Source of the DNA: Octopus sinensis
Lineage: Eukaryota
Length of the DNA: 64,000 nucleotides
Direction of reading: 5' to 3'
Assembly (NCBI RefSeq): GCF_006345805.1
Contig: NW_021837040.1
Location: 1-64,000 of the forward strand
Below are positions 41,268 through 43,834 of the stretch, in pieces; position 1 is the stretch's first letter; every line of letters begins with the position of its first letter. The position numbers are program-made.

Positions 41268-43834
41268 ATTAATTAATAAGGTGAGAGAATTAGATACTAA
41301 TTTAATAGTATATTTATTTATTCCACACAAGTGGCCTAGTGCTACGAGAAACCTGGATTATTATATATTTTATAACATATTATAATATTTTCAACAATAA
41401 ATATAAGAGAGTGGTCACTATATTGATCACTCTAGCACCAGTTAATCCAAAAGGTTTCAACCACGAAAACATGTTTCCCATGAAAGCCAAGTACGACTGT
41501 TAGCTCACACGGACAGGGCAAATAAAAAACAACAAAAATACAGATTATTTTGGGACAATTGTTTCGCTATTAATGAATTAAATGTAATATTACTTACAAT
41601 AATCCATTTGTAGCTCGTCAGCCAAGACTATCTGGATGAAATCCACTCAATCACACACCAGATTTTACCATAACGATAAATACGCGTGTGGTTCAATTGA
41701 TTACACCGACGTTATAATTCAAATGCCCCAACCAACAGCGCGCCAAACTCTCACGGAAACAATACAGCATTTAGAATAAATGCAGCATAATTATAATTAT
41801 TAATAAGGTGAGAGAATTAGATACTATTTAATAGTATATTTATTCACACCAAGTGGCCTAGTGCTACGAGAAAACTGGATTATTATAATATTTTATAACA
41901 TATTATAATATTTTCACAAAATAAATATAAGAGAGTGGTCACTATATTGATCACTCTAGCACCAGTTAATCCAAAAGTTTCAACCACGAAAATACATGTT
42001 TCCCATGAAAGCCAAGTACGACTGTTAGCTCACACGGACAGGGCAAATAAAAAACAACAAAAATACAGATTATTTTGGGACAATTGTTTCGCTATTAATG
42101 AATTAAATGTAATATTACTTACAATAATCCATTGTAGCTCGTCAGCCAAGACTATCTGGATGAAATCCACTCAATCACACGCCAGATTTTACCATAACGA
42201 TAAATACGCGTGTGGTTCAATTGATTACATCCGACGTTATAATTCAAATGCCCCACCCAACAGCGCGCCAAACTCTCACGAAACAAATACAGCATTTAGA
42301 AATAAATGCAGCATAATTATAATTAATTAATAAGGGTGAGAGAATTAGATACTAATTTAATAGTATATTTATTCCACACCAAGTGGCCTAGTGCTACGAG
42401 AAACCTGGATTTTATAATATTTTATAACATATTATAATATTTTCACAAAATAAATATAGAGAGTGGTCACTATATTGATCACTCTAGCACCAGTTAATCC
42501 AAAAGGTTTCAACCACGAAAATACATGTTTCCCATGAAAGCCAAGTACGACTGTTAGCTCACACGGACAGGGCAAATAAAAAACAACAAAAATACAGATT
42601 ATTTTGGGACAATTGTTTCGCTATTATGAATTAAATGTAATATTACTTACAATAATCCATTTGTAGCTCGTCAGCCAAGACTATCTGGATGAAATCCACT
42701 CAATCACACGCCAGATTTTACCATAACGATAAATACGCGTGTGGTTCAATGATTACATCCGACGTTATAATTCAAATGCCCCAACCAACAGCGCGCCAAA
42801 CTCTCACGGACCAATACGCATTTAGAAATACAGCATATTATAATTAATTAATAGGGTGAGAGAATTAGATACTAATTTAATAGTATATTTATTCCAATCC
42901 ACACAGCCTGAGATTATAATAACATAGTACTATAAAAATCATAATGCAAGACAATATTATTAATAATAATATAATAGAGCAGATTACACAAGTAAAGTAG
43001 TGACAATAATATGTGGATGAAACGTGATTATAATATATATATCATTATAAATTGTTCACAAAAAATAAATATAAGAGAGTGGTCACTTATTGATCACTCT
43101 AGCACCAGTTAATCCAAAAGGTTTCAACCACGAAAATACATGTTTCCCATAAAGCCAAGTACGACTGTTAGCTCACACGGACAGGGCAAATAAAAAACAA
43201 CAAAAATACAGATTATTTAGGGACAATTGTTTCGCTATGTGGTTGAAACCTTTTGGATTAACTGGTGCTAGAGTGATCAATATAGTGACCACTCTCTTAT
43301 ATTTATTTTGTGAAAATATTATAATATGTTATAAAATATTATAATAATCCAGGTTTCTCGTAGCACTAGGCCACTTGGTGTGGAATAAATATACTATTAA
43401 ATTAGTATCTAATTCTCTCACCCTTATTAATTAATTATAATATGCTGCATTTATTTCTAAATGCTGTATTTGTTTCCGTGAGAGTTTGGCGCGCTGTTGG
43501 TTGGGCATTTGAATTATAACGTCGGATGTAATCAATTGAACCACACGCGTATTTATCGTTATGGTAAAATCTGGCGTGTGATTGAGTGGATTTCATCCAG
43601 ATAGTCTTGGCTGACGAGCTACAAATGGATTATTGTAAGTAATATTACATTTAATTCATTAATAGCGAAACAATTGTCCCAATAATCTGTATTTTGTTGT
43701 TTTTTATTTGCCCTGTCCGTGTGAGCTAACAGTCGTACTTGGCTTTCATGGAAACATGTATTTTCGTGGTTGAAACCTTTTGGATTAACTGGTGCTAGAG
43801 TGATCAATATAGTGACCACTCTCTTATATTTATT

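What the first reader, a model, noticed from the sequence alone, without database searches (positions are those of the whole stretch)
41270..43833. Retrozyme-like tandem array: ~527 bp ORF-less units, each carrying an intact hammerhead ribozyme
Seen: every complete unit has ttgg-CTGACGA-gcta[long AU-rich loop]tagc-GAAAC-aatt-GTC-ccaa. Predicted cut sites at 41553/4, 42078/9 and 42607/8 give monomers of 525 and 529 nt. Known: minimal type I hammerheads with a palindromic stem III occur in Penelope-like elements and metazoan non-LTR retrozymes, act as dimers, and tandem copies can yield circular RNAs. Inference: a cephalopod retrozyme-type family copied from a circular or concatemeric RNA by a Penelope RT in trans. 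The monomer seems longer than the metazoan retrozymes I recall; novelty cannot be confirmed here.
Basis: partly seen in the sequence, partly recalled or inferred. Interest (0 to 1): 0.9.

Follow-up and report, generated by a model that had tools for sequence, protein, structure and literature searches.

The report
Octopus hammerhead-ribozyme repeat array, Penelope-style insertion
This is a real, ORF-less repeat in an octopus genome whose ~527-base units each carry an intact-looking self-cutting hammerhead RNA motif, and it is a new example of an already described kind of mobile element rather than a new kind.

Summary
Window 41264-43835 is a repeat of 525- and 529-nt units plus one 614-nt variant.

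Two corrections:
- The three tandem HHRs lie on the minus strand.
- The last ~600 nt (43239-43835) is an inverted, 5'-truncated copy with a fourth HHR on the plus strand. It meets the equally 5'-truncated tandem block head-to-head at 43238/43239.

The array sits inside a (TA)n microsatellite. The host is Octopus: one exon is 98% identical to an O. vulgaris protein.

Partial tandem, adjacent inverted 5'-truncated copy and microsatellite target are the published insertion signature of Penelope-like elements (PLEs). The unit has no conserved ORF. It shows no similarity to the PLE RT/GIY-YIG fragment 0.9 kb away.

Best reading: a non-autonomous, HHR-bearing PLE-dependent retroelement, i.e. a "non-LTR retrozyme". 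It was probably copied from a multimeric RNA.

The unit length is not unusual: published consensus lengths run 51-972 bp. Cleavage, circular RNA and the autonomous partner were not testable here. This is a new member of a known kind, of moderate interest.

The parts
41096..41267 (.). (TA)n microsatellite abutting the left end of the array
   Evidence: TRF row: period 2, 87.5 copies. Also found by my own tract scan.
41264..41553 (-). Unit A1: 290-nt 3'-terminal partial unit, i.e. the part downstream of the cut site. It ends in an AT-rich stretch that runs into the (TA)n.
   Evidence: blastn: unit positions 239-525 at 95% identity. Alignment.
41554..42078 (-). Unit A2: 525-nt monomer from cut site to cut site
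   Evidence: As a circle it folds to -142.8 kcal/mol, against -106.3 (sd 5.4) for shuffles.
41550..41625 (-). Hammerhead 1. Helix I is UUGG/CCAA. The core is CUGACGA...GAA. Helix II is GCUA/UAGC closing a 41-nt extension. Helix III is AC[AAUU]GU. The cut is after GUC.
42079..42607 (-). Unit A3: 529-nt monomer
42075..42149 (-). Hammerhead 2
42608..43221 (-). Unit A4: 614-nt variant monomer. About 42895-43026 replaces the usual segment with unrelated AT-rich sequence.
   Evidence: The variant segment has only low-complexity matches elsewhere in the window.
42604..42678 (-). Hammerhead 3
43222..43238 (-). 3' half of a fifth hammerhead, truncated at the 5' end of the tandem block. Its helix I strand reads CCUA instead of CCAA.
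43239..43835 (+). Block B: inverted, 5'-truncated copy. It has 440 nt up to the cut site at 43678 and 157 nt beyond it. It joins block A head-to-head at 43238/43239 and ends at (TA)n.
   Evidence: (inverted pairs I1, I2, I6, I7, I9)
43607..43682 (+). Hammerhead 4. It aligns over the full length of Rfam Hammerhead_1, model positions 1-45, at 20.4 bits (gathering score 34).
43825..44402 (.). (TA)n microsatellite abutting the right end of the array
   Evidence: TRF row: period 2, 295 copies
35565..35868 (-). Diverged, 5'-truncated relative of the unit. It is cut inside helix II of its hammerhead, has the same 3' boundary as A1, and has (TA)n at both ends.
   Evidence: (nhmmer E = 2.2e-4, unit positions 8-281)

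Best explanation
The array is one insertion of a short, non-coding, hammerhead-bearing retroelement of Octopus. Structurally it is a 'non-LTR retrozyme', that is, a non-autonomous element that depends on Penelope-like elements (PLEs).

Proposed working (all inferred):
1. A tandem master copy is transcribed into a multimeric RNA.
2. Hammerheads of neighbouring units pair through their palindromic helix III (ACAAUUGU) into double hammerheads and cut after GUC. This releases ~525-nt monomers that fold into a very stable structure and could be circularised by a host ligase.
3. Uncut multimeric RNA, or less likely a circle, is copied by a PLE RT/GIY-YIG protein supplied in trans. The enzyme nicks both strands of an AT-rich (TA)n target and primes cDNA from both nicks.
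4. That yields two diverging, 5'-truncated copies. A is 3.7 units on the minus strand and B is 1.1 units on the plus strand. They are joined head-to-head at 43238/43239.

Shown from the sequence: the motif, the period, the absence of an ORF, the insertion architecture and the predicted RNA stability.
Inferred: transcription, cleavage, circularisation and the identity of the RT.
For: Hammerhead motif:
- 4 of 4 complete motifs keep all conserved core bases, the G10.1-C11.1 pair and a GUC cut site.
- Across the last 100 alignment columns, which span the hammerhead, the copies differ only by 2 single-base indels, both in the helix II extension. Elsewhere substitution differences between units are 0-3.5%.
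- My own scanner found 7 hammerheads in the window. In 30 block shuffles, 26 had none, and the mean was 0.3.
- Rfam Hammerhead_1 is the best family when the 121-nt stretch is searched alone: full model 1-45, 20.4 bits, E = 0.0065.
- Helix III alone scores 0.0 kcal/mol; the two-copy helix scores -6.4.

RNA structure:
- The sense monomer as a circle folds to -142.8 kcal/mol, against shuffles at -106.3 (sd 5.4). That is z = -6.8, with 0 of 100 shuffles as low. The antisense strand gives -104.2.
- Against the one diverged relative, 5 of 56 predicted pairs keep pairing through changes on both sides. None of 500 shuffles reach 5; slid controls give 1-3.

Element properties:
- No conserved ORF.
- GC content 32.8%.

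Insertion architecture:
- Tandem block plus inverted 5'-truncated copy.
- (TA)n on both sides.
- 8 of 9 ends of the HHR/PLE-type insertions in the window lie within 12 nt of a (TA)n tract, against 6.5% of all positions.
- A second hammerhead family at 184-759 shows the same head-to-head arrangement.

Literature:
- PLE insertions are 5'-truncated partial tandems, often with an adjacent inverted 5'-truncated copy and a microsatellite bias. Non-autonomous PLE derivatives give multicopy head-to-tail insertions (Craig 2021, PMC8557442, passages).
- A purified PLE protein cleaves and extends both DNA strands, prefers AT-rich DNA and starts reverse transcription inside the RNA (Frangieh 2024, PMC11167929, main text).
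- Retrozymes are proposed to be PLE-derived or PLE-dependent.

Template form:
- Unit A4 differs from A2 and A3 by a replaced block, which a rolling copy of one circle would not give.
Against: - No hammerhead match appears at Rfam's gathering score or at E <= 10 when 2.7 kb is searched. The match seen in the short stretch is 13.6 bits below the cut-off.
- The unconstrained fold of the motif pairs GACGA with UUGUC and so closes the catalytic core. It scores -23.6 kcal/mol, against -18.0 for the hammerhead fold. A lone motif is therefore predicted inactive.
- Published PLE-type hammerheads cleave poorly in vitro. For one PLE, cleavage was not needed for insertion in vitro.
- No RNA data could be consulted.
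- No autonomous partner sharing sequence with the unit was found. The neighbouring PLE fragment is unrelated.
- The family is seen at one locus plus one diverged fragment only.
- The 3' end of B lies 157 nt after the cut, against 290 nt for A1 and the diverged copy. This is unexplained.
- About half of the differences between units are single-base indels, which could be assembly errors.
- The nine ends were set by me and are not independent.
- The covariation rests on a single diverged sequence.
Confidence: 0.6

Rival explanations
1. The unit is simply the pseudo-LTR (terminal non-coding region) of an autonomous Penelope-like element that lies elsewhere in the genome. On this reading the locus is an ORF-less or heavily 5'-truncated multi-copy insertion of that element, not a separate non-autonomous family.
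For: - PLE hammerheads sit in pseudo-LTRs, and insertions are strongly 5'-truncated partial tandems.
- In Xenopus, 24 of 57 retrozyme families matched known elements, 21 of the 22 matched elements were PLEs, and the similarity lay at their termini.
- Octopus vulgaris carries PLE families, and a PLE fragment lies 0.9 kb away.
Against: - Three successive units follow each other with no ORF sequence between them.
- tblastn with two PLE proteins finds nothing in the array at E <= 10.
- The adjacent PLE fragment shares no similarity with the unit in blastn at E <= 1e-3 or nhmmer at E <= 10.
- The two readings overlap if retrozymes derive from pseudo-LTRs.
Confidence: 0.22
2. This is ordinary satellite DNA expanded by unequal crossing-over. 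Its hammerhead is an inherited relic without present activity, and the inverted part arose by a later rearrangement.
For: - HHR-bearing satellites with repeats of roughly 500 bp exist, such as pDo500.
- Units differ by 0-3.5% substitutions and one carries a replaced block, as expected for in-situ divergence.
Against: - Both outer ends and the inner junction look like retro-insertion products: 5' truncations at two different unit positions and (TA)n at both 3' ends.
- An independent diverged copy shares the same 3' boundary and is 5'-truncated.
- The hammerhead core is unchanged in 4 of 4 copies.
- The RNA fold is strand-specific.
Confidence: 0.1
3. The tandem or inverted structure is an assembly artefact, for example a fold-back chimera or a mis-expanded repeat.
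For: - Many single-base indels between copies suggest error-prone reads.
- PLE structures are known to trouble assemblies.
Against: - The inversion is not a perfect palindrome. Block A ends inside the hammerhead while block B starts about 104 nt away in unit coordinates.
- The flanks are far less alike (78-88%) than the blocks (97-100%).
- Units carry distinct substitutions.
Confidence: 0.04

Closest known systems
Metazoan non-LTR retrozymes (Cervera & de la Pena 2020, PMC7229834; coral, mussel, axolotl)
   Same: Head-to-tail repeats that each carry a type I hammerhead with a weak, palindromic helix III. No ORF, low GC, and a predicted stable self-paired monomer RNA (for the family; here).
   Different: The unit is 525-529 nt, against the 150-450 bp quoted in that paper. 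It is within the 51-972 bp range of the 2026 preprint. Helix II carries a 41-nt extension instead of a short loop 2, so the canonical loop 1-loop 2 contacts cannot be recognised. The array has only about 4 units, and circular RNA was not tested.
Minimal hammerheads in pseudo-LTRs of Penelope-like elements (Cervera & de la Pena 2014, PMC4209133)
   Same: Short helix I, G10.1-C11.1 pair, small palindromic helix III implying dimeric action. Pairs of motifs 100-700 bp apart on opposite strands are reported there and seen here (blocks A/B; family at 184-759).
   Different: No RT/GIY-YIG ORF between repeats. No unpaired base between A9 and 10.1. Helix II is much longer than the 6-8 bp described.
Non-autonomous PLE derivatives such as MRC1 of Chlamydomonas (Craig 2021, PMC8557442)
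   Same: Short ORF-less elements that form pseudo-LTRs and multicopy head-to-tail insertions.
   Different: Those belong to the Chlamys clade, which mostly lacks hammerheads, and they resemble their autonomous partner at the 3' end. No such partner could be sought here.
pDo500 satellite of Dolichopoda cave crickets (PMC2837043)
   Same: Tandem repeats of roughly 500 bp with a hammerhead that processes multimeric transcripts. A double-hammerhead mode has been proposed for it.
   Different: pDo500 makes up about 5% of a genome as a satellite. The present locus is a short array with retro-insertion ends.
Rfam Hammerhead_1 (RF00163)
   Same: Full-length alignment to the model, with CUGACGAG and CGAAAC..GUC matching the consensus.
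   Different: 20.4 bits against a gathering score of 34, because of the long insertion in helix II. Standard Rfam annotation therefore misses it.

Membership tests
Hammerhead ribozyme, type I | Conserved core CUGANGA ... GAA, the A15.1-U16.1 pair, and a non-G base at the cut site | tested here: met
   4 of 4 complete motifs
Hammerhead ribozyme, type I | Three helices around the core, with helix I open | tested here: met
   Helix I has 4 bp plus 5 bp beyond an internal loop. Helix II has 4 bp plus an extension. Helix III has 2 bp.
Hammerhead ribozyme, type I | Score at or above Rfam RF00163 gathering threshold (34 bits) | tested here: not met
   20.4 bits for family 1 and 18.0 bits for the family at 32855-32935. 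No hit.
Hammerhead ribozyme, type I | Self-cleavage | not testable with these tools
   Needs in vitro transcription of monomer and dimer.
Non-LTR retrozyme | Tandem head-to-tail units, each with a type I hammerhead | tested here: met
   Two full units, one variant unit and two partial units on the minus strand.
Non-LTR retrozyme | Unit length in the published range | tested here: inconclusive
   525-529 nt lies outside the 150-450 bp range but inside the 51-972 bp range.
Non-LTR retrozyme | No protein-coding capacity; low GC | tested here: met
   No conserved ORF. GC content 32.8%. PBS and PPT motifs were not looked for.
Non-LTR retrozyme | Canonical hammerhead with loop 1-loop 2 tertiary contacts | tested here: inconclusive
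   Internal loops lie 4 bp from the core in both helix I and helix II, but no recognisable canonical loops.
Non-LTR retrozyme | Stable, highly self-paired monomer RNA | tested here: met
   z = -6.8, 66% of bases paired, sense strand only.
Non-LTR retrozyme | Expressed as circular RNA | not testable with these tools
   No transcriptome access.
Penelope-like element (autonomous) | ORF with RT and GIY-YIG endonuclease inside the element | tested here: not met
   No ORF. No tblastn hit in the array.
PLE-type insertion (autonomous or dependent) | 5'-truncated partial tandem with an adjacent inverted 5'-truncated copy | tested here: met
   Blocks A and B meet at 43238/43239. Definition.
PLE-type insertion (autonomous or dependent) | Insertion into microsatellite or AT-rich DNA | tested here: met
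   (TA)n at both ends. Literature.
PLE-type insertion (autonomous or dependent) | Sequence shared with an autonomous PLE terminus | tested here: not met
   Tested only against the single PLE fragment of this window.

The most novel reading that the evidence does not exclude
Octopus genomes may carry a large, so far unannotated population of short PLE-dependent elements. Their hammerheads have a 40-60-nt structured insertion in helix II and so escape Rfam-based annotation. Three unrelated families of this build occur within this one 64 kb window. This locus, with its heterogeneous units, shared internal 3' boundary and two-sided head-to-head cDNA structure, would then be direct structural evidence for two things. 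First, animal retrozyme RNAs are inserted by the Penelope machinery. Second, the template is a linear multimer rather than a rolling circle.
Probability: 0.25. Interest if true: 0.55.

Novelty: new member of a known kind. Interest (0 to 1): 0.35.

Why it matters
Which autonomous element moves animal retrozymes is still argued from co-occurrence and, in frogs, from sequence similarity to Penelope termini. One review states that the repeats themselves show no motif that betrays the machinery used.

This locus offers a different kind of clue: the insertion scar itself looks like a Penelope product.

It also shows that standard Rfam annotation misses these octopus hammerheads. A recent detailed O. 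vulgaris repeat annotation never uses the word ribozyme (0 occurrences), so such elements may sit among its many unclassified short retroelements.

None of this changes the known picture of hammerhead-bearing repeats in animals. It extends that picture to cephalopods.

Tried and rejected
The helix II insert is 48-49 nt. One search, with a 35-65 nt gap, found all four.
- Rfam at gathering score, and at E <= 10 over 2.7 kb, gave no hammerhead. Only searching about 120-nt stretches alone gave sub-threshold Hammerhead_1 matches.
- Tandem Repeats Finder cannot report periods above 500, so the array was absent from its output.
- no tRNA-like gene in the window, so no sign of a tRNA-derived SINE head.
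- Pfam scans of 20 stop-to-stop frames found LINE-type RT pieces at 10052-12497 and 55668-56459. They also found an STPR frame, a 7tm_2 exon and a weak GIY-YIG hit. Nothing in the array itself matched.
- I considered the neighbouring PLE fragment (44701-46124) as parent of the unit and rejected it: no nucleotide similarity.
- the A4 variant segment matches only AT-rich low-complexity sequence elsewhere, so its origin is unknown.
- A simple inverted segmental duplication is rejected. The two outer ends lie at different unit positions, and the flanks are much less alike than the blocks.
- the Lunse et al. 2017 paper on dimeric PLE hammerheads is not held. I know it only from the reference list shown.

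Literature searches:
- Searches (octopus + Penelope + hammerhead; cephalopod + retrozyme) found no paper describing such elements in cephalopods.
- The giant squid genome paper reports 235 Rfam hammerhead_1 loci without further study (passage).

Unchecked:
- Genome contigs holds only bacteria and archaea and was not used.
- No eukaryotic genome or transcriptome collection was available. Copy number, other insertions, the autonomous partner and expression therefore stayed unchecked.
The supplementary hammerhead and PLE tables of PMC4209133, PMC7229834, PMC8557442 and the 2026 preprint may list cephalopod families that I could not see.

What I saw of each paper:
- 10.64898/2026.07.22.740005: abstract and Results part 1.
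- PMC7229834, PMC8557442, PMC6962438, PMC2837043, PMC7761336, PMC13282606: passages found by term.
- PMC4209133: parts 1-2 of 4 of the whole text.
- PMC11167929: abstract and the whole main text.
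Full report
WHAT IS THERE

Window 41264-43835 is a repeat bounded on both sides by (TA)n microsatellite, at 41096-41267 and 43825-44402.

A blastn of one unit against the window, an alignment of all pieces and nhmmer give this anatomy, read on the strand that carries the hammerheads.

Block A lies on the minus strand and runs from 43238 down to 41264:
- It starts in the middle of a hammerhead (43238-43222).
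- It continues with a 614-nt variant unit (43221-42608).
- Then come a 529-nt unit (42607-42079) and a 525-nt unit (42078-41554).
- It ends with a 290-nt partial unit (41553-41264) that stops in an AT-rich stretch merging into the (TA)n.

Block B lies on the plus strand, 43239-43835:
- It starts at a different unit position.
- It runs 440 nt to a hammerhead cut site at 43678.
- It continues 157 nt further to the other (TA)n.

The two blocks therefore diverge from a head-to-head junction at 43238/43239, and each is truncated at its 5' end. The junction has no filler. The window has no N.

THE HAMMERHEADS

The pattern CTGANGA-N(35-65)-GAAACAATTGTC occurs 4 times and in none of 100 shuffles. One is on the plus strand, with its cut after 43678.

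Each motif has these features:
- helix I UUGG/CCAA, extended beyond an internal loop by CAGAU/AUCUG;
- the core CUGACGA;
- helix II GCUA/UAGC closing a 41-nt imperfect hairpin;
- GAA, then helix III AC[AAUU]GU;
- C at the cut site.

Across the last 100 alignment columns, which span the hammerhead, the copies differ only by two single-base indels, both in the helix II extension.

Rfam results:
- No hammerhead at the gathering score or at E <= 10 over 2.7 kb.
- When the 121-nt stretch is searched alone, Hammerhead_1 aligns over its full length at 20.4 bits, against a gathering score of 34. The deficit comes from the long insertion.

Energetics of helix III:
- On its own it does not form (0.0 kcal/mol).
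- The 8-nt palindrome of two copies pairs at -6.4 kcal/mol.
- The unconstrained fold of a single motif closes the core at -23.6 kcal/mol, against -18.0 for the hammerhead fold.

This is the behaviour described for animal type I and PLE hammerheads that act as dimers (PMC4209133, text parts 1-2).

THE REST OF THE UNIT

There is no conserved ORF. GC content is 32.8%.

As a circle, the 525-nt sense RNA folds to -142.8 kcal/mol. Shuffles give -106.3 (sd 5.4) and the antisense strand gives -104.2.

A diverged, 5'-truncated relative lies at 35565-35868(-). It is cut inside its hammerhead, keeps GAAACAATTGT, shares the 3' boundary of A1 and has (TA)n at both ends. Against it, 5 of 56 predicted pairs keep pairing through changes on both sides. 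No shuffle of 500 reaches 5; slid controls give 1-3. Three of the five lie in one 8-bp long-range helix. This rests on one diverged sequence and is suggestive only.

SURROUNDINGS

- The host is Octopus. An exon at 33556-34101(-) is 98% identical to an O. vulgaris adhesion GPCR G6-like protein.
- At 44701-46124(-) lies a 5'-truncated PLE fragment. It matches residues 283-654 of a 659-aa RT + GIY-YIG protein at 73.7% identity, has one in-frame stop and a CX4CX2C linker, and has (TA)n at both ends.
- This fragment has no similarity to the unit.
- Two further hammerhead families of the same build (long helix II, GAAAC + 4-nt palindrome + GU) occur in the window. One is a head-to-head inverted pair at 184-759. 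The other is a single copy at 32855-32935, ending about 57 nt after its cut at a (TA)n.
- Of 9 ends of these five insertions, 8 lie within 12 nt of a (TA)n-type tract, against 6.5% of all positions. I set the ends myself and they are not independent.

INTERPRETATION

PLE insertions are described as strongly 5'-truncated partial tandems, often with an inverted 5'-truncated copy next to the 5' end and a bias for microsatellites. Non-autonomous derivatives that make multicopy head-to-tail insertions are also described (PMC8557442, passages).

A purified PLE protein cleaves and extends both target strands, prefers AT-rich DNA and starts reverse transcription inside the RNA (PMC11167929, main text).

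The locus matches on each point. The shared 3' boundary of A1 and the diverged copy fits a preferred internal start site.

Animal tandem hammerhead repeats without an ORF are called non-LTR retrozymes. They are proposed to be moved by PLEs (PMC7229834 and PMC7761336, passages). A 2026 preprint derives them from PLE pseudo-LTRs and gives consensus lengths of 51-972 bp.

I therefore read the array as one insertion of such an element. Because unit A4 carries a replaced block absent from A2 and A3, a linear multimeric template, template switching or a later change is more likely than rolling copying of a single circle.

WHAT REMAINS OPEN

- Cleavage, circles, transcription and the autonomous partner are all untested.
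- The 3' end of B, at 157 nt against 290 nt after the cut, is unexplained.
- The pseudo-LTR reading cannot be excluded without the genome.

VERDICT

This is a new member of a known kind. It appears not to have been described for cephalopods in the papers I could search. Interest is moderate.

Noticed in passing
window 184-759: A second hammerhead family forms a head-to-head inverted pair. The arms are 184-359 and 594-759, 97-99% complementary. Complete motifs lie at about 222-316(-) and 637-721(+), with cut triplet GUA. The 3' ends lie about 48 nt after the cut, and the right end abuts (TA)n.
   Followed up: partly
window 32855-32935 (+): A third hammerhead family: CUGAUGA, helix II GAAGA/UCUUC with a long insert, and GAAAC-AUAU-GUC. 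It scores 18.0 bits against Rfam Hammerhead_1. The element ends about 57 nt after the cut at a (TA)n tract.
   Followed up: partly
window 44701-46124 (-): A 5'-truncated Penelope-like element fragment holding the C-terminal part of the RT, a CX4CX2C linker and a GIY-YIG domain. It has one in-frame stop at 45634-45636 and (TA)n at both ends. A half-hammerhead remnant (GAAACCGGTC, 44827-44836 on the minus strand) lies 126 nt before its 3' end. I saw no matching CUGANGA half.
   Followed up: partly
window 39233-41248 and 44480-44690: A fold-back or MITE-like repeat. A large inverted repeat pairs 39233-40036 with 40469-41248 (92.7% over 805 nt). A short palindromic relative lies at 44480-44690. 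All have (TA)n at their ends. The hammerhead array sits in the (TA)n between two of these.
   Followed up: partly
window 1369-1487 (+): A full-length 5S rRNA match (109 bits), followed by a T run. Whether it is a gene or the head of a 5S-derived SINE was not examined.
   Followed up: no
window 10052-12497 (+), 55668-56459 (+): Broken reverse-transcriptase frames with RVT_1 and zf-RVT matches. These are LINE-type, not Penelope-type.
   Followed up: no
window 33556-34101 (-): An exon encoding the end of a secretin-family 7TM domain, 98% identical to an Octopus vulgaris adhesion GPCR G6-like protein. This identifies the host genus.
   Followed up: yes
window 48157-49242 (-): A 361-aa open frame with an STPR repeat match (E = 5e-13). 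Its nature was not examined.
   Followed up: no
window 41264-43835: About half of all differences between repeat copies are single-base indels, many in homopolymer runs. Either the assembly carries long-read errors here or the copies were made by an error-prone process.
   Followed up: partly
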